From IMG/VR virus record IMGVR_UViG_3300033148_002355: a DNA stretch of 20,000 nt; one strand, given 5' to 3'. The position numbers and the translations under genes were made by a program. This stretch comes from an uncultured virus (IMG/VR IMGVR_UViG_3300033148_002355). Its lineage: Duplodnaviria > Heunggongvirae > Uroviricota > Caudoviricetes. Numbering within the stretch: position 1 is the first letter of the stretch; the number at the start of each line of letters is the position of its first letter. Of the stretch, positions 4,179 through 19,964 are shown piece by piece. Under the pieces are notes generated by a model. The model did not search any database. It was not told the DNA's origin and worked only from the letters and a program-made list of their open reading frames with translations.

Positions 4179-4231
4179 GTTAACTAATTTTAAAAACAAT
4201 TTCGTTCCTCAACAATTTTTACTATTGCGTT
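4179..4231 (+). other. Leading (attI-like) recombination site A1
   Basis: GTTAAC-TAATT-TTAAAA...TTTTAC-TATTGC-GTT; arms identical to the site at 19020-19065. Confidence 0.6.
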
Positions 4232-4490
4232 ATAAAACATCTGTTTGTTTACTCCTTTCAAAACCGTCACAACCTAAGCATTGTGATTCACACCTAACCC
4301 CTCCAACTTCTTCATTAGAGCAAACAAACGATTTCATAACATCAGGTATATTTAAATTTTTCAACTCTGTCCATGCGTGAGCATAAGCTTGTGATTTTCC
4401 ATCACTTCTGCCTTTTTGGTATTCACTACTATCATCCCTTGGTGTATTAGCACCTTTTTTAAATACTTCTAAAATTTCGTTAATATTCAT
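4230..4490 (-). CDS. Cassette-borne hypothetical protein with C-terminal CxxxCxxC
   Basis: 86 aa. Its stop codon overlaps the GTTA core, and the ORF reads through the left arm of site A2. Confidence 0.7.
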   Translation of the reverse strand: MNINEILEVFKKGANTPRDDSSEYQKGRSDGKSQAYAHAWTELKNLNIPDVMKSFVCSNEEVGGVRCESQCLGCDGFERSKQTDVL

Positions 4491-4535
4491 CTGTGTAAAT
4501 TTATTCGTTAAAAATCAAAACATACCTGCAACATT
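4338..4535 (+). other. attC-like site A2 with a long coding loop and a mutated core (ATT)
   Basis: AAC-ATCAG-GTATATTTAAATTTTT (4346-4361) pairs 13/16 with AAAAATCAAAACATAC (4510-4525), followed by CTGCAAC-ATTACCTAC. Confidence 0.55.
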
Positions 4536-4561
4536 ACCTACAAGTGCTAAGTCGGTAGGTA

Positions 4562-5140
4562 CTAATAATGTTTCTTCTTAAATTCTTCTGCCATTATATC
4601 CTGCATATTACCTTTGTAATATCGTGCTGTTTCAGGGTTACTAATTTCATATATCCCTGAACCCATGTTTGGTATGATTAATCCACAAGTAAGAAAATCA
4701 AAACATAAAGCTATGTTTTCTTCTCGTATTAAAAACTCTTCTTTAGTTAACCTAAGCATTTCATCTACGTTATCGCACATTTGAATATACTCATCATATT
4801 TTTCGGTTATGGCTTCCAATTTCTCAGAGGTAATACATTCTTTAATGTCAGGATATTTTTTGATAGCTTCTATTGTTTTGACCCAATAACTACCTATGCG
4901 CTCTCTATCTCTATTTAGTCTATCCATTTCATAAGCCATAAAATGCTTATCGTCCTCCATTTGTTGTTTAAATCTTAGTGCAGGTGTGTCAGTTTCAAAC
5001 GAAACAAACTCATTATTCACTATCCAATTTTTATCATCAATCTTTGTGATGTTATTTTTATATTCGCTTTTACTACTTAATGTTTTTGAGAAGCTCCATC
5101 CCATTAAGCCAAATAATCCTATCATCAATATTATTTCCAT
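4562..5140 (-). CDS. Cassette-borne hypothetical protein with N-terminal membrane anchor
   Basis: 192 aa with hydrophobic N-terminus MEIILMIGLFGLMGWSF; flanked by ATTACCTAC (4533) and GTAGGTAAC (5175). Confidence 0.75.
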   Translation of the reverse strand: MEIILMIGLFGLMGWSFSKTLSSKSEYKNNITKIDDKNWIVNNEFVSFETDTPALRFKQQMEDDKHFMAYEMDRLNRDRERIGSYWVKTIEAIKKYPDIKECITSEKLEAITEKYDEYIQMCDNVDEMLRLTKEEFLIREENIALCFDFLTCGLIIPNMGSGIYEISNPETARYYKGNMQDIMAEEFKKKHY

Positions 5141-5174
5141 TTTCTTAATTTAATCAGTTTATAAATCCGCACCA

Positions 5175-5240
5175 GTAGGTAACACTATCTATATGCAAAA
5201 CTCCGTTGCACTACGTTCAGCACATAGCCAAACCGTTAAC
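5175..5240 (+). other. attC-like site A3
   Basis: GTAGGTAAC-ACTAT-CTATATGC...GCACATAG-CCAAACC-GTTAAC. Confidence 0.75.
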
Positions 5241-5464
5241 TACTTCTCTATAATCTCAATCAAAGTAAGTGTGTCAGGATCGCATAACATGGCTAATGGC
5301 TGACCTTTAATATGCACTTGCATTTTACCGTTAACCATATCTTTATTGTGATGTGTTATTCCTACTTTACCAGTGTAGGTTTTTACTTTGAATCCGGTAC
5401 TACCAACTCTAAAGTTGTGATCTAAGTACCAAGCGTTTGGATTTGTCTCTTCTGTTATTTTCAT
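5240..5464 (-). CDS. Hypothetical protein
   Basis: 74 aa ORF in operon orientation. Confidence 0.65.
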   Translation of the reverse strand: MKITEETNPNAWYLDHNFRVGSTGFKVKTYTGKVGITHHNKDMVNGKMQVHIKGQPLAMLCDPDTLTLIEIIEK

Positions 5465-5477
5465 AATATTTGTGAAT

Positions 5478-6920
5478 CTAATTATTTATAAACGCTTCTG
5501 CAAACCGAACCTCAGCATCCCCGTTCGCATTCCAATCTACCATCTCTATAAATAACTGATACCCTTTCTTTTCTATGAACTTTAATACTTTACTAAAAGT
5601 TTCTTTATCGAATAAACTACCATCTTTAATGAATATACATTTAAGGTTAGGATTCATAGCAATTGCTAGTTGTACTCCTACTCTGATAATAACACTGCTA
5701 GGATGATGGTCCCCGTTAAAAGGTAATCCTTCAAAGTAAACTCCTTCTTCATCAAATGATAATCCTTTAACTGGTAAGGTACTCGTTTCAAAAGACTTTT
5801 GCTTTTCTAATACGATAGCTTTTAAACGTTTGGTTAACTTGTTAGCTTTAGCTTCTTGTTTAGTCACCTCAGCGTGTTTAGTAACTACATCTTGGATTTT
5901 AGTATACATCGCTGTGTATTGTACTAGTTCAGTTTGTTTATCTCTTAGCTTATCTACGTCAGGTTCTTCATTCTTTTCAATCCAAGCTTTTACTTTAACT
6001 ATCTGTTCTGCTGAAGCTTTACCTCTGACCTGAATAAGGTCATGATCATGCATCCTGTTTTTAAGGTCCAGAAGAAACCTCTCATTGTCTTCTCCTAAGG
6101 CTTTAGCTTTATCTAAAACGATTCTATAATACTTAGTTAACTCCCTTGATTTGTCGCCTTCTAAAATACCTGTTTGATGTTCAGTTAATGCTGTTCTTGC
6201 CTTGTTATACTTGACAACACCGTCAACCATATTCAAAAGCTTATTATTAACCTCTGTGAGCTCTTTACTCTTGTCTTCAGTATACTTCTTTACATCCTCT
6301 TCTTTAATGTCTGTAGCACTGCTTAAATTAGCTTTTAAGGTTTTGATGGTTCTGTTAAGTTCAGTTCTTTCATCACGTTTTTCCTTATTCTCATTATCCA
6401 AATCTTCAAGTAATTGTTTTTCATCATCTGTTAAAAATTGTCTTAATACTTCTACTTGTTCTTTTAAACCTGCTTGACTTACTTTACCACTACTTGTTAA
6501 ACCTAACCTTATAAACTCATCAACATCGAAACTAACGTCTCCTATGATGTCACGTTGCATTGATTTAGTTTTAATCTTGTTACCTTCTTCATCTACTACT
6601 GTAACACTCCCTTTTTGATTGCTTTCAGTAAAGTTCATTATGTATTGGAAAGTCTTTTGTTCTCCATCTAAGTCACCTTTGATAACTAGTTTAACGTGTG
6701 CTGACTCTTCTCCTTTTTTGATTGCTTTAGAAGGGACTGCTTCGCTATTTATCGGGGATTGTATAGCTCTAAGAACAGTAGATTTACTACCCCCGTTCTT
6801 TCCTACTACAACTATACTCTTTCCTTGTATATCAATTACCTTACTAGATAATGATTGAAAGTTCTTTAACTCTGCTGAAATGATTTTCATTCCTGTCTCT
6901 TTTCTGTTTAACTCGCTCAT
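5478..6920 (-). CDS. SMC/Rad50/RecN-like coiled-coil ATPase
   Basis: LKNFQS, variant Walker A GKNGGSKST, central coiled coil, Walker B/D-loop IFIKDGSLFD. The start may be the second Met (MKIISAEL). Confidence 0.85.
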   Translation of the reverse strand: MSELNRKETGMKIISAELKNFQSLSSKVIDIQGKSIVVVGKNGGSKSTVLRAIQSPINSEAVPSKAIKKGEESAHVKLVIKGDLDGEQKTFQYIMNFTESNQKGSVTVVDEEGNKIKTKSMQRDIIGDVSFDVDEFIRLGLTSSGKVSQAGLKEQVEVLRQFLTDDEKQLLEDLDNENKEKRDERTELNRTIKTLKANLSSATDIKEEDVKKYTEDKSKELTEVNNKLLNMVDGVVKYNKARTALTEHQTGILEGDKSRELTKYYRIVLDKAKALGEDNERFLLDLKNRMHDHDLIQVRGKASAEQIVKVKAWIEKNEEPDVDKLRDKQTELVQYTAMYTKIQDVVTKHAEVTKQEAKANKLTKRLKAIVLEKQKSFETSTLPVKGLSFDEEGVYFEGLPFNGDHHPSSVIIRVGVQLAIAMNPNLKCIFIKDGSLFDKETFSKVLKFIEKKGYQLFIEMVDWNANGDAEVRFAEAFINN

Positions 6921-6935
6921 TTGTCTGTTTGCTTT

Positions 6936-7130
6936 TTAGTTTTTGTTTTTTATATATACTACTGCTTTACCTTTTATTGCTAAATCGTATATCATTTTCC
7001 TTTGATAGTCACGTAGGTTTAAAGGATGCCTGAATCCGTCTTCACTGAGTACGCAGGTGTATTTCTGTACAAAGTAAAGAAGATCATTTTGACACTTATC
7101 TAACTCTTCGTTTAGTTCTTGTTCTGTCAT
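6936..7130 (-). CDS. Small protein resembling the N-terminal segment of T4-type large terminase
   Basis: E..KC..D..YF...Y.......G.....LRDYQR.M pattern; ends before any Walker A. Confidence 0.6.
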   Translation of the reverse strand: MTEQELNEELDKCQNDLLYFVQKYTCVLSEDGFRHPLNLRDYQRKMIYDLAIKGKAVVYIKNKN

Positions 7131-7483
7131 GATTTAGTTTTAAATACTTCATCCCAAGTTTTAGGATACTTTTGATTTAATATTTGTTTCTTCAACTCTT
7201 TCTCTGCTTGTGACATCTTGGCTCCAGTAGCTCCTATTGATCTTGGTTTGTAAACTAAGTTTTTGAAACTTTTAACCCAACCCATATAATCTTCCCACTC
7301 TCTTATGTTAAGGTTCCAAACCTTCTCAATATACAATCCGGACATCTTACCATCTAATCCAAACTCACCATAACCGCAACGAGTCATCCCTATCTCTTTC
7401 ATTTCAATAAGGCGCTTTCTGGTTCTGTCGTTATTTAGAGTAGAGCTGTAATAGGTTTTGTCTTCTATATTTATTTCACTCAT
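7127..7483 (-). CDS. Hypothetical protein
   Basis: 118 aa with ATGA overlaps on both sides. Confidence 0.7.
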   Translation of the reverse strand: MSEINIEDKTYYSSTLNNDRTRKRLIEMKEIGMTRCGYGEFGLDGKMSGLYIEKVWNLNIREWEDYMGWVKSFKNLVYKPRSIGATGAKMSQAEKELKKQILNQKYPKTWDEVFKTKS

Positions 7484-7671
7484 TTATCTTTTATTTTTCC
7501 TGTTTTACATTTTGTCATATCAAGAGTTACGAATCTAAGATTACCTTGCTTAGCTTCTTCTTTTAAACACTTAATGTAGTTATCTTGAATCTCTTTCGCT
7601 GTGGGATTGATAGTGTACTCTTTAGTAACTAACTTCTCTCCGTCGTGGTATGCAATAGTCCCTTTGCTCAT
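7480..7671 (-). CDS. Hypothetical protein
   Basis: 63 aa, coupled to its neighbours. Confidence 0.6.
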   Translation of the reverse strand: MSKGTIAYHDGEKLVTKEYTINPTAKEIQDNYIKCLKEEAKQGNLRFVTLDMTKCKTGKIKDK

Positions 7672-7673
7672 AT

Positions 7674-8720
7674 TTACTTCTTTTTACTTTTTTCTACAAA
7701 CTCTTCCCTATCCTTTTTTTGTTTACAAAACTTAGCAACACTACAATAAAACTTACACTTAAACCCTACATCTATTCTAAACTCTATTTTAGGGTTAGTT
7801 AACTTAGCTTTGTTATCTTCTATATACTGTTCGGCACTTGCTTTACTGTAACATATTTTAGCAGCATTCTTCCTAGTTTCAGACATGACAGCAAAAGCAT
7901 CTGGTTTAGCCCATCTTTCTGTATAAGAACATAATGGTAACTTTTTCCTTTGACTTGCTTCGTAGTGTAACTTAACACGTTGCTTAATATACTCTTCACA
8001 TTCTTCCGGGGACCAAACTCTTAACTCTATAATTTTAAACACTGAGTCAGGGTATTTATTAGCTTTCTTATTAGGGTTCATAATGTAGTTCATCTTACCC
8101 CAGTTTCTGAACATAGCAAGTATTTCAATCTTCTCCACTTCACAACCAATAGCTCTTAACATGTGAGCGTATATGTTTTGTTGACGTTCCCAATCTATAT
8201 GTTCGTCTTCACCATACTTATTAACATTACATACTTTATAATCTCTTAACAGTTTTTCGGGAGCATTATAATAATCTTGAGTACCACTAACTCGGTAAGT
8301 GTATTCTTTATCATCAACTTCGCTTACCTGGGTAATATCTAATGTTAAAGTTCTTTCAGAAAATATAGTCTTACCTACTTGTTCATCAGGGAATCCTTTC
8401 TTAGCTGCTAAACCTATTTGTTTTGCCAAATCGGGGAGACCCATCCTTTTCAAAGCAGCGTGAGCAAACTTTAACGTTTCATAATCTCTATGAGTATAAG
8501 TAGCACTTTCCATCAAACTATGAAACGCTGTACCTAACATCATAAACACATGATCGTTAACATCTTCTTCCACTTCGTTAGCATCCTTTAACATACGTAC
8601 TCTAGGAGACCCTATTAAAGTAGTTACTGATATATCACCTTTAGTAACGTGATCGTCGAAACAAGCAGCTTTGTATAGTTCTGCAGGTGCTCCGTATTTG
8701 TTTGTTATTTTAACGCTCAT
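7674..8720 (-). CDS. PD-(D/E)XK (Cas4/RecB-like) nuclease, probable Fe-S cluster
   Basis: GTAFH, SGTQD, LRDYK, QQNIY motifs; PLC...CKFYCSVAKFC cysteines. The start was moved from 8807 to MSVKITNKY at 8720 because the extension covers a terminator-like hairpin. Confidence 0.82.
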   Translation of the reverse strand: MSVKITNKYGAPAELYKAACFDDHVTKGDISVTTLIGSPRVRMLKDANEVEEDVNDHVFMMLGTAFHSLMESATYTHRDYETLKFAHAALKRMGLPDLAKQIGLAAKKGFPDEQVGKTIFSERTLTLDITQVSEVDDKEYTYRVSGTQDYYNAPEKLLRDYKVCNVNKYGEDEHIDWERQQNIYAHMLRAIGCEVEKIEILAMFRNWGKMNYIMNPNKKANKYPDSVFKIIELRVWSPEECEEYIKQRVKLHYEASQRKKLPLCSYTERWAKPDAFAVMSETRKNAAKICYSKASAEQYIEDNKAKLTNPKIEFRIDVGFKCKFYCSVAKFCKQKKDREEFVEKSKKK

Positions 8721-8741
8721 AGTGTTGTATTTAATACTTTT

Positions 8742-8782
8742 AAAATAAAAACCCCTTGTCAACTTTGACATAAAACAAGGGG
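8742..8782 (-). terminator. Rho-independent terminator-like hairpin
   Basis: Minus strand CCCCTTGT...ACAAGGGG followed by TTTTTATTTT. Confidence 0.5.
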
Positions 8783-8865
8783 CTTCCCTCTTTTTAAGAA
8801 CTCTCACTTAGGATGAGAGGTAAGAACGATCTTTAATATCTTATTGTTAATAATCTAAATGTACT

Positions 8866-9378
8866 TTATACTTTCTTAAACTCCCGTTTTTTAAGATAAT
8901 TTAACTTCATTAATTTATAGTCGTCAGCATCTGGAACTTCCACTCCGTATATCATTTCCACATGACTTACTATATCGTTGATAAAATCTATCAACCTCCC
9001 CTTTGTCATATCTCTTTGACTCAGTAATACAAATACATCACTACCGTCATTATCGGGGATTACATCCTTTGCAAACATCATCTTCATAGCTATCATACAC
9101 TCGACCTTATCTAATACCTCTCCTTGGTCCCTTTTAACTTTCATGACAAAAGGTATCAGTACACCATTTAAGTAGTTGTACATCCTTCTTTTGCCTTCTA
9201 TAGATGTAGTTTCTTCTATTGTAATAGTAAGTTCCTCCCCGCGTTTTTGAAATAGGAATGAAGTTAATGATCTTACATCTGTCAAACGTATGAGCATATC
9301 TCTTAATGAAGAGTCTCTTTTAAATGTTACGTTGGTTATTATTTTGTCCATTTGTTTAATTCTATCGGGGTGTATCAA
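8866..9378 (-). CDS. NinB/Orf-like recombination accessory protein
   Basis: Pattern YNYLNGVLI...G...MK.MF...S.RDMTK..L..FI..I.......GVEVP; lies next to a recombination nuclease. Confidence 0.5.
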   Translation of the reverse strand: MIHPDRIKQMDKIITNVTFKRDSSLRDMLIRLTDVRSLTSFLFQKRGEELTITIEETTSIEGKRRMYNYLNGVLIPFVMKVKRDQGEVLDKVECMIAMKMMFAKDVIPDNDGSDVFVLLSQRDMTKGRLIDFINDIVSHVEMIYGVEVPDADDYKLMKLNYLKKREFKKV

Positions 9379-9758
9379 AAAGGTATAATCATAAGCCTAC
9401 CTCCAGCTCTTTGACACCATAAATCTAAAGCTCCACAACTAATGTTTACTATTCCTCTTTCTGCTTGTGCATAATAACTTCTATTAGTACCTACTAACAA
9501 AGCCATTTCGGTTTGCGTTAAGTTTAAGTTGCTCCTTAAATACTTAAGCATCTTTCCTCTTGATAATCGTTGAGGTTTGTTTTCATATTCAAGTATAGCT
9601 TTCTTATTCCTTGGTGTCTTAGGTCTTTTTTCTATTATTCTTTCTCTAGCTTCTTTTTCATCTGTTTCTGAAAAAGCAGCCCTAATATGTAAGTCTCTTT
9701 CTTCAGCTTCTGAAAGCGGTTGGTTTCCTGTTCTTGCTTTTTCTATTTTTCTTGGCAT
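9375..9758 (-). CDS. XRE-family HTH transcriptional regulator
   Basis: LKYLRSNLNLTQTEMALLVGTNRSYYAQAERG. Confidence 0.88.
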   Translation of the reverse strand: MPRKIEKARTGNQPLSEAEERDLHIRAAFSETDEKEARERIIEKRPKTPRNKKAILEYENKPQRLSRGKMLKYLRSNLNLTQTEMALLVGTNRSYYAQAERGIVNISCGALDLWCQRAGGRLMIIPF

Positions 9759-9790
9759 TGTGTTTTTATTTATTTGCGGGGAGAATTAAA

Positions 9791-10273
9791 CTACCCTTGG
9801 TTAAAATACTTGTTTACATCATTATCTATTACTTCCTTACAACAATTAACTAAACTAACATACTGAGCAAATCGTCCATAATCTTTACCTAACACATGAA
9901 CAATACTAAACAACTCCTTACGATACTTAATAATACCTTTAGCAATTTTCCTGTACTCTCTCTCTTGCACATTACTATCAGTAACCTTTTCTTTCATCTT
10001 TACCATCTTCTCTAATACACGATATAAGTTGTTAAGCACTTCTTTATCACTTAATAGTTTTACTTCGTCTATTCGCTTGTAAATAGAGCAAATAAATGTA
10101 CTTAAATTTCCTACTAGGTCAGTTAGTACTAAATACTTCACCTCCTGAGTTACTTGTCTTTTATTCCCTTGTATTTTGATGGTAGGATGTGTATTGTCTC
10201 TGCCATGTATAATCAAGTAAAAGTATAACGTGTGTATGTTGTCTTTGGTTGTTTGGTGTACTGTGGTTATCAC
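9791..10273 (-). CDS. Hypothetical protein
   Basis: 160 aa, GTG start overlapping the upstream stop. Confidence 0.65.
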   Translation of the reverse strand: MITTVHQTTKDNIHTLYFYLIIHGRDNTHPTIKIQGNKRQVTQEVKYLVLTDLVGNLSTFICSIYKRIDEVKLLSDKEVLNNLYRVLEKMVKMKEKVTDSNVQEREYRKIAKGIIKYRKELFSIVHVLGKDYGRFAQYVSLVNCCKEVIDNDVNKYFNQG

Positions 10274-10944: not shown

Positions 10945-10972
10945 AATTTGCGGGGTTTTAGTTTTTAGTGGT

Positions 10973-11410: not shown

Positions 11411-11466
11411 AATAACGGAGATGTAAAACGCAACTCCTTACAGTCGCAGACGTTTACACGGTCGTT
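11411..11466 (+). other. Leading (attI/attC-like) recombination site C1
   Basis: AATAAC-GGAGA-TGTAAAACG...CGTTTAC-ACGGTC-GTT. Confidence 0.65.
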
Positions 11467-11470
11467 GTGC

Positions 11471-11692
11471 TTAATTAGGTAATAGACTAAGCATATTGTC
11501 CCAAACGCATACACTGTCATACATTCCATTACCTGAGTACGATATTGCTCCTACATTTACAATATCAAACTTTTCACCGTTTGGAATCTCTACTGTTTCG
11601 GGTGTTATGCTTGTTATTAATACTTTTCTATCGCTTACATTACATAAGTAAATGCAACCTTCTTTTAATTGTGATATTTTTAATGTTTCCAT
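11471..11692 (-). CDS. Cassette-borne hypothetical protein
   Basis: 73 aa; flanked by GTTGTGCTTA (11464) and TAAGCACAAC (11701), a perfect 10-bp inverted repeat. Confidence 0.75.
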   Translation of the reverse strand: METLKISQLKEGCIYLCNVSDRKVLITSITPETVEIPNGEKFDIVNVGAISYSGNGMYDSVCVWDNMLSLLPN

Positions 11693-11700
11693 AATTTAAC

Positions 11701-11791
11701 TAAGCACAACACTACCTATAAAAGCATAGCGTCGGGCTACTTGGTTTAATAATTAAGCGTATTACTGGCTACGCTTTATAGCCTCAACGTT
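11701..11791 (+). other. attC-like site C2
   Basis: TAAGCACAAC-ACTAC-CTATAAAAGC...GCTTTATAG-CCTCAAC-GTT, with one extra base in the left box. Confidence 0.8.
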
Positions 11792-11799
11792 GTAGTGCA

Positions 11800-11940
11800 T
11801 TAGATAAACTCTATGTTATCAATATGAACGTTTTCTATTTTGTTGTTATGCTCAACTTTAATCATAACAAAATCATTTACTATGATGCTACAAACTTCTG
11901 CTATGTCACATCCCCAAATTACTTTACTTCCTACTATCAT
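11800..11940 (-). CDS. Cassette-borne small protein (46 aa)
   Basis: Manual: MIVGSKVIWGCDIAEVCSIIVNDFVMIKVEHNNKIENVHIDNIEFI; flanked by GTTGTAGTGC (11789) and GCACTACAAC (11970). Confidence 0.65.
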   Translation of the reverse strand: MIVGSKVIWGCDIAEVCSIIVNDFVMIKVEHNNKIENVHIDNIEFI

Positions 11941-11969
11941 TTTATTTTGTTTTTTAGTTATTAATTAAC

Positions 11970-12027
11970 GCACTACAACAATTTGTATAGTACATACTTC
12001 GTACAGCCCCATACAAGGGGCGTTATT
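11970..12027 (+). other. attC-like site C3
   Basis: GCACTACAAC-AATTT-GTATAG...CATAC-AAGGGGC-GTTATT. Confidence 0.75.
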
Positions 12028-12043: not shown

Positions 12044-12520
12044 TTAATATCTTACTCCTGTTTCTAAAAAATCATATTCATTAACTTCTAAACTTTCCTT
12101 AATACATTCATCACTCATTAAGTATTCATACTCTTTTTGTAGCATATTAATATACTGTAACCCTATACTATCTTTAAACATCCTGATAGTACCTTCTTTT
12201 TGCTCTAAACCTTTCATTACTCTCTCTCTCACTTGTTTCTCAAAACATTTAGCAGTGATATACGTTTGACATTCTTTCCCGTGCTCTGTCAATATTGTAT
12301 TAACAATTTCATCAATAGGCTTATTTAGTACTATTTCAATCTCTCGCCTGTCAATGTCAAAACTTTTAATTGTTGCACCTATATTCTCCATATCATCATA
12401 GATGCAATTCCACCACTCGCAGTATTCTACGTTAAAATATCTGTTATCTTCAATTGCTTTCTCTTGTGCTTCCTTGCTTAGTTCCTTGAACTTGTAAAGG
12501 TTTAATTTGATTGTTTTCAT
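12044..12520 (-). CDS. Acidic phage hypothetical protein
   Basis: 158 aa; LYKFKELSKEAQEKAIE...EWW..IYDD...EYEYLMSDE..NEYDF pattern, recalled from phage early regions. Confidence 0.75.
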   Translation of the reverse strand: MKTIKLNLYKFKELSKEAQEKAIEDNRYFNVEYCEWWNCIYDDMENIGATIKSFDIDRREIEIVLNKPIDEIVNTILTEHGKECQTYITAKCFEKQVRERVMKGLEQKEGTIRMFKDSIGLQYINMLQKEYEYLMSDECIKESLEVNEYDFLETGVRY

Positions 12521-12751
12521 AGCTTCTATTGATTTTTATTTGTAGTTATGTGTATTTATTGGTTTTTAAAATTCTCCTACTGTTACATTAACTGTTATCT
12601 CTTCGCCTTCCTCCGTGCAACTAGTCCAAGTAAAAACAACTTGTTCGCTGTTCGCTCCTATTCCTTGTTTCATGTATTCAAGGTCGCTTTGTGTAAAGTT
12701 TAATTTGATTGTTTTCATAGCTTCTATTGATTTTTATTTGTGGTTATGTGT
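12493..12751. repeat. ~60-bp direct repeat (12493-12553 and 12692-12751) covering the leader and first codons of two adjacent genes
   Basis: 44-bp identical core gtttaatttgattgttttcatagcttctattgatttttatttgt at 12500-12543 and 12698-12741. Confidence 0.9.
12566..12718 (-). CDS. Hypothetical protein (50 aa)
   Basis: Manual: MKTIKLNFTQSDLEYMKQGIGANSEQVVFTWTSCTEEGEEITVNVTVGEF. Confidence 0.6.
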   Translation of the reverse strand: MKTIKLNFTQSDLEYMKQGIGANSEQVVFTWTSCTEEGEEITVNVTVGEF

Positions 12752-13399: not shown

Positions 13400-13402
13400 A
13401 AT

Positions 13403-13561: not shown

Positions 13562-13596
13562 AGTATTTTGATTTTGTTTGTTTTGTGGTTTATAAG

Positions 13597-13628
13597 TTCA
13601 CCCCGTTTTGATATTCGCGGGGTGGAAC
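13597..13628. promoter_or_regulatory. GCGGGG intergenic motif within a hairpin; 17-bp copy at 14333-14349
   Basis: TTCACCCCG...CGGGGTGGAA hairpin; TTTTGATATTCGCGGGG occurs at 13606 and 14333. Confidence 0.5.
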
Positions 13629-13638
13629 AATATTAATA

Positions 13639-13863: not shown

Positions 13864-13885
13864 TTTGATATGGTTTTTATGTGGT

Positions 13886-14293: not shown

Positions 14294-14537
14294 TTGATTT
14301 GATTTATTATGTGATTATTTAAATTATTCAATTTTTGATATTCGCGGGGAGAAACATTAATTAACTATTTAACGATCTCCCCCTATACAGTAAACAAACA
14401 AAGCTTAACTATAAGATAATGTTACAATAGTAGTTAATACTATTAATAGTGCTTTAAACTTGTTCTTTGTGCTTGTTGTTGTGTTTCGCATTTGATTTGA
14501 TTTAATTGATTTGTTATGTATTGCCCTTAAGACTCTA

Positions 14538-14564
14538 CTAATATAGTTATTATTATTCTTACAA
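14538..14564 (-). promoter_or_regulatory. Possible Bacteroidota-type promoter for the early gene string
   Basis: Minus strand TTG-16 nt-TATATTAG, a variant of -33 TTG / -7 TAnnTTTG. The spacer is short. Confidence 0.25.
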
Positions 14565-14739
14565 CCTAATTTGTTAGTATATATATAACAATTATTTTTT
14601 AGTATTAGAGTAGTGAAAGCTCTGTGTCGTATGCTGTGACTAGGTTATAGAAGGTTAAAATATTATTAATTAAATACATAAAGAATAAAGCCTAGTAAAT
14701 AGGTAATATTTGACCCGTTTAATAGTGTTTGAGGTTCGG

Positions 14740-15460
14740 GTTTGCTGTGGTAGTAAGGGTTGTGGGTTGTTTGCTGTGGTATATTACGGTGTAAATTAGT
14801 GGTGTTTGCTGTGCTTCTATTCTCTCTCTATTACAGAGATAAATTAATTGTATTGATCAGGTAGTATAAGAGTGAGCACCAACACAGCAACCGAGCACAT
14901 ATAACAGGGTCAAATGTTGTCCTATAATTAACATTATGTTAAATAGGATTTTAAACGCCTGATAACAGTACAACACAGAGCACTTTAAAAAAAGACCTCT
15001 CCCCTCCCCTACCATATGCCATCTGTAAAATAGTATCAACCTATTCACTAAGGCATAGGACACCCCCTTACCCGTTTACATTGCTTTTGTATATTATTTG
15101 GATTATATAACGCACTTTTTATTCTTGGATAGGGGGGGTACCTTATTATACGTATACTGTCTGGCAGACAGAAACTTCCAAAACCACAGCAAACAAGGTC
15201 CTACCACAGCAAGCCCTACTCTAGTGTACAGCACAGCAAACGAGTATCTATCCACTCCTTATATCACAGCAAACCGTAAACTGGTTACGGAGTAAGTATT
15301 AACAACTGCAACTAATCAAGCGACTAATACATTAGTCCCTCAACCTCTCACGTTGCATTTAACGCACTTAATATATAAAATGGCATATAGATAAGGGTAC
15401 ACCCCTTTAGAGTGTCTTAGGAGTCAGCATATAGCAAACCGTAACAGTTTACGGTGTAAA
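14740..15460. repeat. Head-to-head clusters of CACAGCAAAC repeats in a long non-coding region (candidate origin or packaging/terminal region)
   Basis: GTTTGCTGTG at 14740, 14769, 14804; CACAGCAA(A/G)C at 15185, 15205, 15232, 15265; partial copies at 14883 and ~15432. Confidence 0.8.
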
Positions 15461-15641
15461 ATGATAAAGGGGGGGGTGTTTATATAAGTACTAGTACATA
15501 AATATCGAGATATAATGGAAACGGTACTTGTAAGGTGTACGATTATAGGAAATGGTAGATTAACCTATTTACTGGGCTGTAGGATGAATAAGTGCTAAAT
15601 TGCACGGGGTAGAGACAAAAAGTGACAGGAAACGCTAATGA

Positions 15642-15833
15642 TTACTCTTTATCTTTCAACCATTTAAAGAACTCATTTACTTGTATCATCATTTCGTCAC
15701 TCCACTCTACAGCCTTTTGCCAAGTGAATATGATGGTAATGTTAGTTAGCAGTCTGATTATTGCTACAATGGCTGCTAAAATGAGGAATGGTCCCCAAAG
15801 TAATGCTATTAATAATTTAAGTGTATATTTCAT
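15642..15833 (-). CDS. Small membrane protein
   Basis: 63 aa with a long hydrophobic N-terminal half. Confidence 0.6.
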   Translation of the reverse strand: MKYTLKLLIALLWGPFLILAAIVAIIRLLTNITIIFTWQKAVEWSDEMMIQVNEFFKWLKDKE

Positions 15834-15846
15834 AATTATTGTTTGT

Positions 15847-16080
15847 TTAAGTTTTAATTCTTCTTATGTACCAATACTTGAACATTATTCCTTTATTTCT
15901 TAAGTCGCATAATGTTTTCTTATGTATGGATAGGTCTTTTATTATTAGTCCTCCCCCGCATATTCTAAATCTGATAAACCCAGGGGCAAACGCATAAGTA
16001 AAAACATCGTAGTTTAATATCACTATCCTGCACCCTTTGAAATGCATGAAACCCTCATTACTATACTTGAATATAATCAT
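15847..16080 (-). CDS. Hypothetical protein
   Basis: 77 aa ORF. Confidence 0.5.
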   Translation of the reverse strand: MIIFKYSNEGFMHFKGCRIVILNYDVFTYAFAPGFIRFRICGGGLIIKDLSIHKKTLCDLRNKGIMFKYWYIRRIKT

Positions 16081-16150
16081 GAAACAAATATCAACTAATA
16101 AAGTGTAATGTAATAGTTAAATTTAGTTAGTGAGTAATATTTAAGATTTG

Positions 16151-16651
16151 TTAACTTTCTTTCCCTTTTATCAAATTATAATAACCGGGATCTAATACAC
16201 TTATCTTATGCATGTTTTCTTCATAATCTAACATCTCTTTCCTCCCTTCCGGATCATTCTCCCACTTTTGGTGACATGTCATGCAATGATACGTTATATT
16301 GCTCACTACAGCTTCTAATGCTTTGTTCTGTCCTACCGGGACCAAATGAGAGTGTGTTAACTCACTACTCCCGCATCCTGTGCAATGATGTTCCCTAATC
16401 TCCGCTATAATATCATAAGCCTTATGCTTATTCTTTATATTCCTAGCTTCTTTTTTAGAAACTTTGTTAGGACCAGCTTTATTAATCTTTTTCTTAATCG
16501 CTGTACGCTTCAAAGGAGTCCTTTTAAGCTCATAAGTCTTCTTTACCTTTACTTGGTATTGCTTTAGTCCTTTATGTTCGTTACAAAGGTAGTATATACC
16601 TAACTCTACGCACTCTTTAATCTTTCTACAATGCCTGCATATTTGCTCCAT
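16151..16651 (-). CDS. HNH/NinG-like zinc-binding nuclease
   Basis: CTGCG...HSHLVP...SNITYHCMTCH; N-terminal CRHC...CNEH zinc motif; KRTPLKR basic segment. Confidence 0.7.
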   Translation of the reverse strand: MEQICRHCRKIKECVELGIYYLCNEHKGLKQYQVKVKKTYELKRTPLKRTAIKKKINKAGPNKVSKKEARNIKNKHKAYDIIAEIREHHCTGCGSSELTHSHLVPVGQNKALEAVVSNITYHCMTCHQKWENDPEGRKEMLDYEENMHKISVLDPGYYNLIKGKES

Positions 16652-16653
16652 GA

Positions 16654-16899
16654 TTATCTTTTGGGTATTTTACTTAAATCTACTATATTTCTATACCAAA
16701 CTCCTTCAGGGCATTCGTTGCTATGTTCAGAAGCTTTTGCGGGTAAGTAGCATCCGCATCCTCCATTTTCTTTCCTGCACCATGTTGACTTATTAGATAT
16801 AGGACATAGACTACAAGCTTTTAATCTAGTTTCTTTCATGTCTTTATTCTCCCCGGAAAATAATTTTATAAACGATGTGGTTATGTTGATAACATTCAT
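16654..16899 (-). CDS. Cys-rich small protein
   Basis: RLKACSLCP...C....GGCGCYLPAKA...CP.G.W. Confidence 0.7.
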   Translation of the reverse strand: MNVINITTSFIKLFSGENKDMKETRLKACSLCPISNKSTWCRKENGGCGCYLPAKASEHSNECPEGVWYRNIVDLSKIPKR

Positions 16900-16913
16900 A
16901 AAAGTAAATATAC

Positions 16914-16946
16914 AAAAAAAGCCTAATAACTGAGTTACTAGGCTTT
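16914..16946 (-). terminator. Rho-independent terminator
   Basis: Minus strand GCCTAGTAAC-TCA-GTTATTAGGC-TTTTTTT. Confidence 0.75.
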
Positions 16947-17024
16947 GGTCGGTATCTAATACCTCTCCGTTTATTTCATCGGGATAGCGAAGGTAGTAAT
17001 AATTAGTTGAATAAGTTCATGATG

Positions 17025-17135
17025 TTATTTTTTATTGGTTTGGTTAATAATTAGCCCGTCACAATCTGAGCATTTGTTTTTTTTAATTTCTACATCGTCC
17101 CTATCGTAAATAATACAGGTGCAAATTTCATTCAT
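17025..17135 (-). CDS. Small Cys-containing protein (36 aa)
   Basis: Manual: MNEICTCIIYDRDDVEIKKNKCSDCDGLIINQTNKK (CxC...CxxC). Confidence 0.45.
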   Translation of the reverse strand: MNEICTCIIYDRDDVEIKKNKCSDCDGLIINQTNKK

Positions 17136-17159
17136 TTGTTTATTTTTTATTGGTTAATA

Positions 17160-17618
17160 CTATTCAAAACTCTTTTTCTGGTGCAACATAAATTCCAACT
17201 GCTCATTTGCCTTAATCAAATCCTTTGTTTGTTGGCGGTCTTTCGCTGCTAGATCATACATTTGAATACCCTGCTCAAAAGCTGTTATTAATTTTGCTGC
17301 GTCCCACGGTTTATTCAAAACTTTGAAAACCTTTCCCTCATTTACAGCCTCAATAACTACACTTATGTCTGAATAGCCAGTGAGTAACATTCGTAAAACA
17401 TCAGGATAGTCTTTTGCAGCCTTCTTTAAAAACTCACATCCATTCATTTTAGGCATTCTTTGGTCGGATATTATAATTTTAATATCGTTGTTTTTAAGAA
17501 TCTCAAAGGCTTCTACTGCTGAATCAGTTATAAAAACCTCGTATTCTCTTCTAAAGGTTGCCTTAAAAACGTTTAAGTTTGATGGTTCATCGTCTAAGTA
17601 AAGAATTTTGTTTTTCAT
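17160..17618 (-). CDS. Stand-alone response regulator (receiver domain plus short coiled coil)
   Basis: ILYLDDE, phospho-acceptor ISDQRMP, LLTGY, NKPW. Confidence 0.93.
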   Translation of the reverse strand: MKNKILYLDDEPSNLNVFKATFRREYEVFITDSAVEAFEILKNNDIKIIISDQRMPKMNGCEFLKKAAKDYPDVLRMLLTGYSDISVVIEAVNEGKVFKVLNKPWDAAKLITAFEQGIQMYDLAAKDRQQTKDLIKANEQLEFMLHQKKSFE

Positions 17619-17740
17619 TTTTTATTGTTTTTATTTATTAATGTTTCTAAAAGGCTTTCGACTATGTTTCTTAGTAAATTTATAGTCCAAATAGAGTAAA
17701 TTATTCCTACCCATTGTAAAATTTCGTTTAGTATTTCCAT
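17615..17740 (-). CDS. Small membrane peptide (41 aa)
   Basis: Manual: MEILNEILQWVGIIYSIWTINLLRNIVESLLETLINKNNKK; ATGA overlap with the receiver gene. Confidence 0.5.
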   Translation of the reverse strand: MEILNEILQWVGIIYSIWTINLLRNIVESLLETLINKNNKK

Positions 17741-17744
17741 TTTT

Positions 17745-18149
17745 TTATTTTTTAATGTTTATAGGTTGCCAATCTGTTATCCCGTTGCTATATTCATGCC
17801 CTTTACTATCACGCCAGTAAAAATCATATTCTTTGACAGCTTTTGACGGTAATCGCTCTTGGCATCCATATTTTACACACACAACACTACCATTATAAAT
17901 AGCTAGTACATAATCTGAATATTTTCCCCAGCTATGCTCATGTGTTAATTTAGGTAATTTTTCATCAACACTAGCCCAATCTTTATCTTTTTGATATTTC
18001 ACCATCCAAGTAGTAATGATTACCCATTCACCTCTTGTAAAACCTTTACTAAGACCTTCACCTTCATTGTATTGTGAGGCTTTTTCTGTTTTAAAAAACT
18101 CTTTTGTAAATAGTTTCATTAAAAACTTTCCTGCTCTAAATTTTTTCAT
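17745..18149 (-). CDS. Protein with C-terminal DUF551-like domain
   Basis: WASVDEKLP...SDYVL...ITDWQPI matches the WISV..RLP...VTHWMPL pattern. Confidence 0.65.
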   Translation of the reverse strand: MKKFRAGKFLMKLFTKEFFKTEKASQYNEGEGLSKGFTRGEWVIITTWMVKYQKDKDWASVDEKLPKLTHEHSWGKYSDYVLAIYNGSVVCVKYGCQERLPSKAVKEYDFYWRDSKGHEYSNGITDWQPINIKK

Positions 18150-18157
18150 TGTTTTGT

Positions 18158-18394
18158 TTATTGGTTTAACACTTCTTTTTTATACGCCTCAATTAGTTTA
18201 TCCCCTACATAGTGTTTATTATTTCCTGTAGTGTACCATGTTAGGAAGTTTTCCTGAGCTTGTTGGTAGCCTTTTATAAATGCTTTTCTATAGTTGTCAG
18301 TTGGTTGTTCACTCTGTACCGTACCTATACCTTCCTCGTTACTATAAGGATATTGCTTTTCCGCTAACTTTTCAATTTCTTCCTTTCTCATCAC
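18158..18394 (-). CDS. Hypothetical protein
   Basis: 78 aa; EIEKLAEKQYP...RKAFIKGYQQA. Confidence 0.65.
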   Translation of the reverse strand: MMRKEEIEKLAEKQYPYSNEEGIGTVQSEQPTDNYRKAFIKGYQQAQENFLTWYTTGNNKHYVGDKLIEAYKKEVLNQ

Positions 18395-18625
18395 TTATTG
18401 TTTATTGGTTAATCTATTATCTTGTTTTACTTTGTCTATATTAAGTGCTACAATTTGATAAAGTTTTTTGTATTTTAACGTTTCAAGGTATCTTTTAGCG
18501 TCCTTTTTTCTAAAGAATATTATACCCGTGTGAAACCAGTCGTCACTCTTTACATGTCTCACTTCCCAAAGTATATTACTAGCTATTGTAGCTCCTGAAC
18601 TTTTAATTGTGTAAGCTTTCATCAC
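18395..18625 (-). CDS. Hypothetical protein
   Basis: 76 aa, abuts its neighbours. Confidence 0.65.
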   Translation of the reverse strand: MMKAYTIKSSGATIASNILWEVRHVKSDDWFHTGIIFFRKKDAKRYLETLKYKKLYQIVALNIDKVKQDNRLTNKQ

Positions 18626-18940
18626 TTATTTTTTTTTGGTTAATACTCCTCGTTTGCTCACATCAATATAATCTTTACATTCTGATATGCTACCTTTAAA
18701 AACCTCCTCTTGTTTTTCTTCTTGTAAGAATCTTAAATCAGCATGAGTTATTCTAATAACTCTAAAAATATTATCCTTGTGAAATTCTATTCTATATTCC
18801 ATCACTTTTGGTTTTAACTGAGAAATAGACTCTTTTAGTTTTTTTCCATTTTCTCCTTGTTTTAAATATTCTGTTTCGTCTATGTGGTCGCACTTGTCAA
18901 ACCCTGCATAATAACAATCTTTGCAAACTTGTTTTTTCAT
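18626..18940 (-). CDS. Hypothetical protein
   Basis: 104 aa with N-terminal CxxC...CDH. Confidence 0.65.
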   Translation of the reverse strand: MKKQVCKDCYYAGFDKCDHIDETEYLKQGENGKKLKESISQLKPKVMEYRIEFHKDNIFRVIRITHADLRFLQEEKQEEVFKGSISECKDYIDVSKRGVLTKKK

Positions 18941-19019
18941 AGTTTTTTTTAAATTAATATTTCTCTATTTTCTTAACACGTTATTAATTTTATGTTAACG
19001 TTTTGCGGTTTTCTTAACA

Positions 19020-19065
19020 TAACTAATTTTAAAAGGCATTGAAACGCCCTTTTACTATTGCGTTA
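19020..19065 (+). other. Leading (attI-like) recombination site E1
   Basis: TAAC-TAATT-TTAAAAGGC...GCCCTTTTAC-TATTGC-GTTA; arms identical to A1. Confidence 0.6.
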
Positions 19066-19075
19066 GCTACAACTA

Positions 19076-19861
19076 CTAGACGAATACAACGTTACCTTCT
19101 TTGTGAGAAACAAATCCATCGTCTAACATTTTAAACCATTCTTCTTTTGTTGCTTTGTGTTTGCCAAATGTTGTAGCATTATCTTCACACCAATCACATA
19201 ATTTTTCCAATGTTTCAAATACAGGTGAGCTTGGACTTCCTTCGCTAGTCGTTTCCCATAATTGAAAACCTTCGCCCTTTGGTGGGTCATACTCTTTCCA
19301 ATTTTCGTAATCAGATTTTGCTCTTGGATGTTGCCATTTTTCACCTTCACCATCACAATGAATACATAAGTGAGATTTTCCCTGCCTTTTTAATTTAGCT
19401 TTTATCACAATTGAGCAATTAAGGCTGTCATGTCCCATACCTTTCAAGTTCCATTCGTTAACCTCTTTTGCTGTTGGTTTATATCCGTTATCAAATGGCA
19501 ACCAAGAGTTTCCCCCATCCTCAATTTTTTTCCTTACTATTTCTCTGTGTTCATCTGTTAGCGGTACTCTTGTAAAGTCCCAAAGTCTATCGGATTCTAT
19601 TAATGCATTTACATCTTCCTGTGTCAAATTGTTATTCCACGCAGAAGCATTATATATAAAACCTTCACGGAATGGATTAGGCTTGTAATCTTCCTTTCCC
19701 CATCCATACCATTCATTTTCTAATTCTTTATAATCCTTCGACCATCCAAGACCATCACATTCTACACATTCGTGTCGTTGGTGTGGGTTTATGTATCCAC
19801 TCCATGTTTTGCCAATTTCCCATTTGAAATCTAAAGCAACTCTTTTTAATTCTCTTCCCAT
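19076..19861 (-). CDS. Cassette-borne phage protein with two CxxCxGxG motifs
   Basis: CVECDGLG, CIHCDGEG, GFQLWETTSEGSP.SPVF; flanked by GTTAGCTAC (19062) and GTAGCTAAC (19903). Confidence 0.8.
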   Translation of the reverse strand: MGRELKRVALDFKWEIGKTWSGYINPHQRHECVECDGLGWSKDYKELENEWYGWGKEDYKPNPFREGFIYNASAWNNNLTQEDVNALIESDRLWDFTRVPLTDEHREIVRKKIEDGGNSWLPFDNGYKPTAKEVNEWNLKGMGHDSLNCSIVIKAKLKRQGKSHLCIHCDGEGEKWQHPRAKSDYENWKEYDPPKGEGFQLWETTSEGSPSSPVFETLEKLCDWCEDNATTFGKHKATKEEWFKMLDDGFVSHKEGNVVFV

Positions 19862-19902
19862 TATTATTTTTAATTTAAGTTTGTAATAAATAACCCGTAG
19901 CA

Positions 19903-19964
19903 GTAGCTAACAATACCTATATGTCAGCTTCCTAACGTCAGCCGAACACATAGCCGACCTCGTT
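19903..19964 (+). other. attC-like site E2; another cassette probably follows beyond the window
   Basis: GTAGCTAAC-AATAC-CTATATGT...ACACATAG-CCGACCTC-GTTAGC; closely resembles A3. Confidence 0.78.

What the first reader, a model, noticed from the sequence alone, without database searches (positions are those of the whole stretch)
4179..19964. Phage genome carrying three dispersed integron-like gene-cassette arrays without an adjacent integrase
Seen in the sequence: eight intergenic sites share the architecture AAC-5 nt-box...complementary box-6 to 8 nt-GTT. They lie at 4182-4231, 4338-4535, 5181-5237, 11414-11466, 11708-11791, 11977-12024, 19021-19064 and 19909-19964. The bases after each GTT are complementary to the bases before the NEXT site's AAC, across the intervening gene: GTTGTGCTTA/TAAGCACAAC, GTTGTAGTGC/GCACTACAAC, GTTAGCTAC/GTAGCTAAC and (A)TTACCTAC/GTAGGTAAC. 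Established: this is the footprint of circular attC cassettes integrated at G|TT by integron-type tyrosine recombinases. Inference: the phage gains and loses single accessory genes as cassettes at several points inside its operons, using a distant phage-encoded or host-encoded recombinase. Integrons are classically bacterial or plasmid elements, so this may be an undescribed phage diversification system. The core sites keep AAC/GTT but often depart from strict RYYYAAC/GTTRRRY.
Basis: partly seen in the sequence, partly recalled or inferred. Interest (0 to 1): 0.93.

Follow-up and report, generated by a model that had tools for sequence, protein, structure and literature searches.

The report
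attC-like gene cassettes in marine phage
A marine phage carries small accessory genes bounded by folded AAC...GTT hairpin sites that behave like integron cassette sites; related strains swap whole gene blocks exactly at these sites, a layout already reported in a few lytic phages.

Summary
Seven of the eight reported sites are real imperfect hairpins (S2, 4338-4535, is not). All genes lie on the minus strand, and each site starts 0-19 nt after a stop codon.

The gene-spanning complementarity holds. Across the window and three other phage sequences, 9 of 11 cognate pairs match 5 nt or more beyond GTT/AAC, against 6 of 341 non-cognate pairs.

Two relatives lack the bounded genes. One has a bare GTTAAC at the empty place. 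Metagenome contigs from two studies replace 11467-12020 with 228 other letters, breaking at the CGTT ends of S4 and S6. A third study breaks at the same CGTT.

The sites belong to a family also present in Polaribacter and Cellulophaga phages. It includes a published phage attC (P12002L_attC1) and resembles PH101_attC2, which IntI1 recombines (Qi et al. 2023).

The integron-like (CALIN) reading is therefore supported as DNA behaviour, but the kind is already in print, and this scan noted look-alikes on other DNA. No recombinase was found: none in the window, and a tyrosine recombinase in only 1 of 5 complete related or site-bearing genomes. The folding strand is the mRNA sense strand, so an RNA role may coexist.

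The parts
4182..4231 (-). Site S1. On the sense strand it reads AACGCAATAGTAAAA...TTTTAAAATTAGTT. Its AAC overlaps the stop codon of the 86-aa gene. It forms the right end of the ~1.06 kb insert upstream of the helicase gene.
4230..4490 (-). 86-aa accessory gene with no family match. It is absent from G001 and L006.
4530..4561 (-). The GTAGGTAA pairs with TTACCTAC at 5175-5182. This is a degenerate or collapsed junction, not a full site.
4562..5140 (-). 192-aa accessory gene with a hydrophobic N-terminus and no family match. It is absent from G001 and L006.
5181..5237 (-). Site S3 (type I). It forms the left end of the insert and starts 2 nt after the stop codon of the conserved 74-aa gene.
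11414..11466 (-). Site S4. Its CGTT end on the + strand (11463-11466) is a breakpoint in contigs of three studies.
11471..11692 (-). 73-aa accessory gene A, flanked by GTTGTGCTTA and TAAGCACAAC.
11708..11791 (-). Site S5 (type I with a long loop). It is homologous to the L006 site at 2922-2974.
11800..11940 (-). 46-aa accessory gene B, flanked by GTTGTAGTGC and GCACTACAAC.
11977..12024 (-). Site S6. Homology to G001, and to the X3/X6 variant, ends at its AACG on the sense strand (12021-12024).
19021..19064 (-). Site S7 (type II). Its loop, CGTTTCAATG, resembles that of P12002L_attC1. In X3 it occurs in a different sequence context.
19076..19861 (-). 261-aa Cys-rich accessory gene. Its C-terminal 52 aa are 48% identical to a gene that sits at a different place in G001.
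19909..19964 (-). Site S8 (type I). It shares 45 nt at 91% identity with site Qb of the unrelated contig L024.

Best explanation
The seven hairpins are attC-type cassette recombination sites, and the genes between them are mobile cassettes. They form three small clusters of attC-like sites without an integrase (CALIN-like) in the early region of a probably lytic marine phage. The host is probably a Flavobacteriia member; this is inferred.

Each unit, read along the gene sense strand, is C-(hairpin core)-GTT-X-(leader)-gene-X'-AA. So the site sits 5' of its gene. The window's + strand is the top-like strand (AAC...CGTT), and the gene sense strand is the better-folding, bottom-like strand (AACG...TGTT).

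Exchange happens within CG|TT of the + strand. A circular unit integrated there leaves X after the upstream GTT and its complement X' before the next AAC, which is the pattern seen.

Shown here:
- the anatomy of the sites;
- the strand bias of folding;
- the anchored complementarity across genes;
- gain, loss and replacement of blocks at these ends;
- kinship with published phage attC sites.

Inferred:
- that the exchange is site-specific and acts on folded single strands;
- that the enzyme comes in trans, from a host integron integrase or another recombinase, because none is encoded nearby.
For: Anatomy:
- All 7 sites read AACG at the sense-strand start and GTT at the end, and begin 0-19 nt after a stop codon.
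- They have a short closing stem, unpaired spacers, and an inner stem with bulged bases.

Strand bias:
- The sense strand is the more stable as DNA in 15 of 16 family sites.
- The folds contain 25 G-T pairs on that strand against 2 on the other.

Footprint:
- 9 of 11 cognate pairs against 6 of 341 non-cognate pairs have 5 or more anchored complementary bases; 0 of 20000 permutations reach this.
- One nested pair in P12002L (Pe pre / Pg post, 5 nt across two genes) fits insertion history better than RNA pairing.

Gain and loss:
- Four of the five bounded genes are absent from G001, and all five from L006; the 261-aa gene has a partial match at a different place in G001.
- The empty site in L006 is GTTAAC.
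- Joint 11466->12021 with 228 letters between appears in X3 (a 5757-nt contig, flank 255) and in X6. An X2 contig matches 11463-11964 only from its 25th letter.
- The cores of S4, S5 and S6 share no homology, so these breaks cannot come from homologous exchange between repeats.

Family:
- Sites of the same family are found in P12002L (5 located), P12002S, and Cellulophaga phages phi12:1 and phi18:3.
- P12002L_attC1 of PMC9892861 is one of them.
- PH101_attC2, which IntI1 recombines, aligns to S3, S4 and S6 with z 3.7, 4.2 and 4.9 in the sense orientation. The reverse orientation gives z of 1.4 or less.
- P12002S and P12002L are 99% identical in the flanks but carry one methyltransferase unit at different places.
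Against: - No tyrosine recombinase (PF00589) was found in the complete relative G001, in P12002L, P12002S or phi12:1, or in 4 contig fragments.
- The only one found, phi18:3 gp037, is a generic phage integrase beside a repressor. It has no integron-integrase family match.
- The rest of this phage's own genome could not be searched.
- The closest published site, P12002L_attC1, was the one of six that IntI1 did not recombine.
- The flanks depart from RYYYAAC/GTTRRRY.
- The empty places in G001 and L006 keep no hairpin site.
- Some breakpoints lie inside sites (5225, 4196, 11998) or 8 nt beyond a GTT (19072).
- Other gene losses in the same region use plain direct repeats: 12 nt of AAACCCCGCAAA at 10946/11203, and 44 nt at 12499/12698.
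- The loops share a conserved motif, which attC loops need not do.
- G-T-rich folding of the transcribed strand is what an RNA element would show.
- No attC covariance model could be run here.
Confidence: 0.55

Rival explanations
1. The hairpins are regulatory modules at gene boundaries, comparable to the promoter-early stem-loops (PeSLs) of T4-type phages. The phage's own general recombination or replication machinery (the exonuclease 7674-8807 and the AAA_23 ATPase 5478-6920) shuffles genes at them through microhomology or hairpin-induced breaks. No site-specific recombinase is involved, and small circles arise as by-products.
For: - No recombinase was found in 4 of 5 complete genomes.
- A recombination gene set lies in the window.
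- Other deletions in the same region run between short direct repeats of a promoter-like motif (12 nt) or of gene starts (44 nt).
- Type I sites share homology from AACG through GTT down to the start codon, so the site plus leader forms one module.
- The PeSL precedent includes mini-circles (PMC2839356, abstract).
Against: - S4, S5 and S6 share only AACG/CGTT, yet the block replacement breaks exactly there.
- No sigma-70-type promoter was predicted at the sites, and only 2 of 7 sites overlap a terminator-like hit, one of them on the wrong strand.
- The anchored complementarity across genes needs a single crossover of a circle at a fixed point.
Confidence: 0.22
2. The hairpins are RNA elements only: 5'-leader or 3'-end structures for stability, processing or translational control, with 5'/3' pairing around each cistron. 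They mark mosaic junctions simply because they lie between genes.
For: - As RNA the sense strand folds much better than the other strand: S3 -22.0 vs -10.8, S8 -27.3 vs -11.2, S5 -28.4 vs -21.8 kcal/mol.
- G-T pairs are almost confined to that strand.
- The loop motif (CGTTT..GACGATAGGA..AAATG) is conserved, and a free-standing mini-hairpin GCTGACGTTAGGAAGC lies 16-25 nt upstream of start codons in P12002L, L017, L021 and L023.
Against: - Breakpoints in three studies fall on the same four letters.
- The empty site is GTTAAC.
- The same site is shared at 91% identity between phages with no shared proteins.
- A nested complementarity spans two genes.
- A family relative is recombined by IntI1 as DNA.
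Confidence: 0.12
3. The pattern is chance in AT-rich intergenic DNA.
For: Ten-base inverted matches between unrelated intergenic regions are not rare: 6 of 211 pairs.
Against: - Permutation of the anchored matches reaches the observed count 0 of 20000 times.
- Sites are conserved across phages.
Confidence: 0.01

Closest known systems
[quoted passage not shown] 2023, PMC9892861 (read: abstract, section 3.4, method passages, supplementary file 1)
   Same: - A phage genome without an integrase that carries two or more attC-like hairpins between small accessory genes.
- One published site (P12002L_attC1) belongs to the same sequence family as the window's sites.
- PH101_attC2 is similar in a strand-specific way.
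- Methyltransferases and genes of unknown function serve as cargo in the relatives.
   Different: - Here there are three separate mini-clusters inside an early operon.
- The site lies 5' of its gene, and the bottom-like strand is the mRNA strand.
- The flanks fit RYYYAAC/GTTRRRY poorly.
- Natural block replacement at CGTT is seen in metagenomes, which that paper did not show.
- None of these sites has been tested with an integrase, and the nearest published one failed with IntI1.
Classical integrons (IntI, attI, Pc, attC-bounded cassettes; features recalled, apart from G|TTRRRY which is quoted)
   Same: - The same topological footprint: the bases after G|TT are complementary to the bases before the AAC at the far end of the same cassette.
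- Imperfect hairpins with unpaired spacers and bulged bases.
- One strand folds better than the other.
   Different: - No intI, attI or common promoter was found.
- Genes are inverted relative to the site.
- Units are inserted at several places, including a bare GTTAAC.
- The loops are conserved.
PeSL mobile regulatory cassettes of T4-type phages: Arbiol et al. 2010, PMC2839356 (abstract read); Comeau et al. 2014, PMC4122927 (search listing only)
   Same: - Small genes of unknown function in a phage's hyperplastic early region are gained, lost and replaced at repeated intergenic stem-loops.
- No dedicated recombinase is present.
   Different: - PeSLs are near-identical promoter-plus-terminator repeats that recombine by homology.
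- Here adjacent sites share only four letters at each end.
- No sigma-70-type promoter was predicted at the sites.
Insertion of integron cassettes outside att sites: Loot et al., bioRxiv 10.1101/2022.09.11.507474 (search listing and start of abstract only)
   Same: It would explain units sitting at ordinary genome positions, such as the GTTAAC upstream of the helicase gene.
   Different: It was shown for bacterial genomes with IntI present. Nothing here shows that an integrase acts on this phage.

Membership tests
Integron attC site | Inverse core ...AAC and core GTT... at the two ends (RYYYAAC / GTTRRRY) | tested here: inconclusive
   AAC and GTT are invariant in 7 of 7 sites. The four flanking letters often depart from RYYY/RRRY, for example GCACAAC, CTACAAC, GTTGTAG and GTTACCT. 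The L006 unit has the exact GTTAGGC/GCCTAAC.
Integron attC site | Imperfect inner inverted repeats (L boxes) separated from the R boxes by unpaired spacers, with extra bases on one arm and one strand folding better | tested here: met
   Folds. The spacer after AAC is 4-7 nt. Bulged T or G is seen in S4, S5 and S7. The sense strand is more stable in 15 of 16 family sites.
Integron gene cassette | The bases after G|TT at the start of the cassette are complementary to the bases before the AAC of its own attC | tested here: met
   9 of 11 cognate pairs against 6 of 341 non-cognate pairs have 5 or more anchored bases.
Integron gene cassette | Presence/absence or replacement polymorphism that breaks at G|TT | tested here: met
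   Joint 11466->12021 in X3 and X6, and the X2 contig diverging at 11463. The insert is flanked by GTTAAC, against the empty GTTAAC in L006. Resolution is limited to the four letters CGTT. Some other breaks lie elsewhere (5225, 4196, 19072).
Integron attC site | Recognised by an attC covariance model or HMM (IntegronFinder, HattCI) | not testable with these tools
   No attC model is available here, and Rfam gave no match at E of 1 or less. Indirectly, the family member P12002L_attC1 was predicted by HattCI. PH101_attC2 aligns to S3, S4 and S6 with z 3.7-4.9.
Integron attC site | Recombined by an integron integrase | not testable with these tools
   This needs a bench assay. In print, PH101_attC1/2 were recombined by IntI1 and P12002L_attC1 was not.
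Complete integron | An intI gene (a tyrosine recombinase with the IntI-specific insert) next to attI and the array | tested here: not met
   No recombinase domain in the window's 40 ORFs. PF00589 is absent from G001, P12002L, P12002S and phi12:1. The rest of this phage's genome is not held.
CALIN | Two or more attC sites close together with no integrase nearby | tested here: met
   S1+S3, S4+S5+S6 and S7+S8 each lie within 1.1 kb. This is met only if the sites are accepted as attC.
PeSL regulatory cassette | A strong sigma-70-like early promoter joined to a terminator stem-loop, repeated with high identity | tested here: not met
   No promoter-like hit on the sense strand within the sites. The nearest is a weak 9 of 12 match at 19887-19860. 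Terminator-like hits occur only at the S4 interior (sense strand) and S6 (+ strand). Adjacent site cores are unlike each other. The scan does not cover Bacteroidota promoters.

The most novel reading that the evidence does not exclude
The sites are not ordinary integron attC sites borrowed from bacteria. They would be the joints of a phage-borne pool of units, each a hairpin plus leader plus gene, shared among marine Flavobacteriia phages and reaching a Pseudoalteromonas phage.

In this reading the units move at a fixed AA|C on the mRNA-sense strand, without any phage-encoded tyrosine recombinase. Either an enzyme not yet recognised does this, or a host integrase acts on replicating lytic-phage DNA. 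The same hairpin, with its conserved loop motif (GACGTTAGGAAG-like), would double as an RNA control element for the gene it brings along.
Probability: 0.3. Interest if true: 0.8.

Novelty: new member of a known kind. Interest (0 to 1): 0.5.

Why it matters
If the reading holds, lytic marine phages draw single accessory genes from a common cassette pool, using the same site logic as bacterial integrons. In the relatives these genes are often anti-restriction methyltransferases.

This window adds natural evidence that the 2023 paper lacked. Environmental strains of one phage differ by whole units that break at the four letters CGTT.

It also sharpens an open question: which enzyme moves the units? 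Four of five complete genomes, either related or bearing such sites, encode no tyrosine recombinase.

The sites give concrete substrates for recombination assays and for transcript mapping.

Tried and rejected
- **Searches with no result.** Megablast of the whole window against GenBank phages gave no match. No tRNA and no Rfam family at E of 1 or less were found. No whole genome is held for the window.
- **Relatives.** Helicase tblastn against phages gave only hits below 30% identity. Protein-guided scans found just two relatives, G001 and L006. The genome-contig scan with the AAA protein alignment found nothing, and neither did its scan for a 21-mer of S8. So no bacterial copy of the site was found by exact match, which does not show absence.
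- **Length test.** A test of inverted repeats by length alone did not separate adjacent from non-adjacent intergenic pairs.
- **Constrained folding.** Folding every AAC...GTT pair of 36-130 nt and ranking by energy favoured long coding stretches and did not discriminate.
- **Sequence HMM.** An HMM built from alignment A5 mostly recovered its own members. Its best hit in G001 had E 7.1.
- **Covariance model.** I prepared a model from the published attC sites, but the MAFFT alignment A6 was not structurally trustworthy (PH101_attC1 has two alternative AAC partners), so I did not build it.
- **Circle junctions.** All four runs are held as contigs, which cannot show rare circles.
- **Contig ends.** Contig ends at 4231 and 12020, and uncovered parts, are not counted as evidence.
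- **phi18:3 recombinase.** I considered gp037 as a dedicated cassette enzyme and set it aside. It is a generic 428-aa phage integrase next to a repressor.
- **Shared 16-mer.** The 16-nt identity CTAATGCACTACAACG between the end of gene B and an L024 ORF does not reflect a shared gene.
- **Cargo function.** The cassette proteins match no Pfam, PHROG or NCBIfam family.


Full report
**Setting**

The window has 33% G+C. It encodes, all on the minus strand, a phage early and replication region: a C5 methyltransferase, an RNase T-type exonuclease, an SNF2 helicase, an AAA_23 ATPase, a PD-(D/E)XK-type exonuclease, an HTH protein, a receiver-domain protein and many small ORFs without family.

No GenBank phage is close. 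Two relatives were found:
- G001, a complete 71,693-bp IMG/VR genome with terminal repeats, 70-84% nucleotide identity in core genes.
- L006, a 9-kb metagenome contig.

Near-identical DNA is held by 20 listed marine and sediment runs from 13 studies.

**The observation**

Seven of the eight sites are intergenic imperfect hairpins. Read along the gene sense strand, each starts with AACG 0-19 nt after the stop codon of the upstream gene (S1 overlaps it) and ends with GTT 15-80 nt before the next start codon.

They form sub-families:
- S3, S5 and S8.
- S1 and S7.
- S4 and S6, each on its own.

Site 2 (4338-4535) lies inside an ORF and is not a site. Only a short hairpin followed by AATGTT exists at 4561-4530.

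The four complementarities across genes are as quoted. Length alone is unremarkable in this AT-rich DNA. Anchored at the GTT/AAC boundary, and using 16 sites from four phage sequences, 9 of 11 cognate pairs extend 5 nt or more, against 6 of 341 non-cognate pairs. No permutation out of 20000 reaches this. The two cognate misses are Pg->Ph in P12002L and Qb->Qb2 in L024.

**Which strand folds**

As RNA the sense strand is far more stable than its complement: S3 -22.0 vs -10.8, S8 -27.3 vs -11.2, S5 -28.4 vs -21.8 kcal/mol. With DNA parameters the sense strand wins in 15 of 16 family sites, and its folds hold 25 G-T pairs against 2.

The + strand of all seven sites ends in CGTT, as 4 of the 7 reverse-primer strings in Table S3 of PMC9892861 do. 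The forward strings there all end in TTGTT, and five of the seven begin their site with AACG, like the window's sense strand.

In TJE1, which the paper calls a typical array, the forward string is antisense to the ORFs. In PH101 and for P12002L_attC1 it is the sense strand of the neighbouring ORFs. That the forward strings are the bottom strands is my reading of that table together with recall of attC_aadA7.

**Gain, loss and replacement**

Neither relative encodes the genes at 4230-4490, 4562-5140, 11471-11692 or 11800-11940. The 261-aa gene has only a 52-aa match, at a different place in G001.

Upstream of the helicase gene the window has about 1.06 kb (S3, two genes, S1) that both relatives lack. 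L006 reads TAA-GTTAAC-AGAAAAC at the empty place, and the window's insert has (G)TTAAC at both ends. G001 has no such hexamer there.

Contigs of four runs from four studies were laid on the window:
- X3 (a 5757-nt contig with 2 and 6 other letters in the flanking pieces) and X6 replace 11467-12020 with 228 other letters. The block runs from the last T of S4's CGTT to the C of S6's CGTT.
- An X2 contig matches 11463-11964 without a difference, but only from its 25th letter. There the DNA left of the same CGTT differs.

Taken together, the crossover lies within those four letters. The replaced block holds the cores of S5 and S6 but not the core of S4. Each core therefore travels with the gene downstream of it on the sense strand. 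Type I homology running from AACG through GTT to the start codon fits this.

Against a simple picture:
- Other breaks lie inside sites (5225 in X1, X3 and X6; 4196 in X2; 11998 in X2, where only the loop differs) or 8 nt beyond a GTT (19072 in X3).
- Other genes are lost between plain direct repeats (10946->11203, 12 shared letters; 12499->12698, 44 shared letters).

**Family and literature**

S8 shares 45 nt at 91% identity with a site in L024, a contig with no protein in common with the window.

Polaribacter phage P12002L holds at least five sites of the family between its early-region genes, three of them just upstream of DNA-modification genes (two methyltransferases and a Mom-like gene), with the same flank complementarity. 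Related sites occur in P12002S and in Cellulophaga phages phi12:1 and phi18:3. An alignment of 14 sites shows shared loops of the form CGTTT(GACGATAGGA)AAATG. G001 has none.

Qi et al. 2023 (PMC9892861) reported 17 CALINs in phages, including P12002L, and showed that IntI1 recombines five of six phage attC sites at G|TT. The failure was P12002L_attC1, which is site Ph of this family.

PH101_attC2, which worked, aligns to P12002L_attC1 and, in a strand-specific way, to S3, S4 and S6 with z 3.7-4.9. TJE1 sites and P12002L_attC2 show no such likeness.

P12002S and P12002L are 99% identical around one site but carry a methyltransferase unit at different positions.

This scan's earlier notes describe look-alike AAC/GTT hairpin arrays in other phages. 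I treat them as leads only.

**The missing enzyme**

PF00589 finds nothing in G001, P12002L, P12002S or phi12:1, nor in the fragments behind L017, L021, L023 and L024. The control genomes all give matches.

Phi18:3 has one tyrosine recombinase 2.2 kb from a site. It is a generic Phage_int_SAM_5 plus Phage_integrase protein beside a repressor, and its only NCBIfam match is a weak XerD hit.

The phage does encode general recombination functions.

**Verdict**

The cassette-like DNA behaviour at CGTT is supported by independent natural variants, and the site family connects to published phage attC sites.

Still open:
- whether an integron integrase or another enzyme acts on the sites;
- whether the hairpins also work in the mRNA.

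The PeSL-like model and the RNA-only model explain parts of the data. They do not explain breaks at four shared letters between unlike cores, or the anchored footprint.

The kind (CALIN in a virulent phage) is already in print, so this is a new member. Its features of interest are the site lying 5' of the gene, folding of the sense strand, dispersal into three mini-clusters, and natural unit replacement.

Noticed in passing
window 14294-15641: A 1.35-kb ORF-free stretch with several copies of GTTTGCTGTG and, further on, its complement CACAGCAAAC. It may be an origin or iteron region. It is also the part with the densest letter differences between runs (14952-15021).
   Followed up: no
window 14349-14341, 13622-13614, 12042-12034, 11211-11203, 10955-10947, 9781-9773; also L001 2066, 2745, 4296: The motif CCCCGC(A/G/T)AA lies 15-35 nt upstream of many start codons on the sense strand and is conserved in both relatives. 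It may be a phage-specific promoter or leader element. One natural deletion (10946->11203 in X3) joins two copies and removes the 67-aa gene.
   Followed up: partly
window 12499-12698: The genes 12044-12520 and 12566-12718 both start MKTIKLN and share about 44 nt including their leaders. An X1 contig lacks the 198 nt between the repeats.
   Followed up: partly
window 19925-19940 (loop of S8); L013 around 30870 and 38830; L017 1318, L021, L023 6001: The 16-mer GCTGACGTTAGGAAGC forms a mini-hairpin. It sits in the loop of S8 and of L024 site Qb. It also stands alone 16-25 nt upstream of start codons in P12002L and three low-GC viral contigs; in P12002L that gene is a methyltransferase. Its role is unknown. 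7 of the 12 viral-contig hits were in high-GC contigs and look like chance.
   Followed up: partly
L013 (Polaribacter phage P12002L) 29170-39260: This phage holds at least five full sites of the family, plus truncated AACG... starts after many stop codons. The 2023 paper reported two attC sites. Its attC2-type site occurs twice (29175-29243 and 37201-37269), in the opposite orientation to the attC1-type sites.
   Followed up: partly
L029 (Cellulophaga phage phi18:3) 14704-18231: A long-loop site lies upstream of a C5 methyltransferase gene. A collapsed junction TTGTGCCTAACAATGTT follows at 16637-16692, and a 428-aa tyrosine recombinase gene starts about 250 nt further on, near a repressor gene.
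   Followed up: partly
window 6936-7130 and 6923-7487: A 64-aa ORF matches part of a terminase large-subunit family (phrog_5989, E 1.8e-09). It sits in the replication region, and X3 and X6 contigs skip 6924-7486.
   Followed up: no
window 17160-17618: A 152-aa stand-alone response-regulator receiver domain protein (PF00072, E 1.3e-18) is encoded in the phage early region. It is absent from G001.
   Followed up: no
window 13562-13638 and G001 17587-17669: A conserved hairpin, CACCCCGCGAATATCAAAACGGGGTG, embeds the CCCCGC motif. It is present in both the window and G001 and is unlike the AAC/GTT sites.
   Followed up: no
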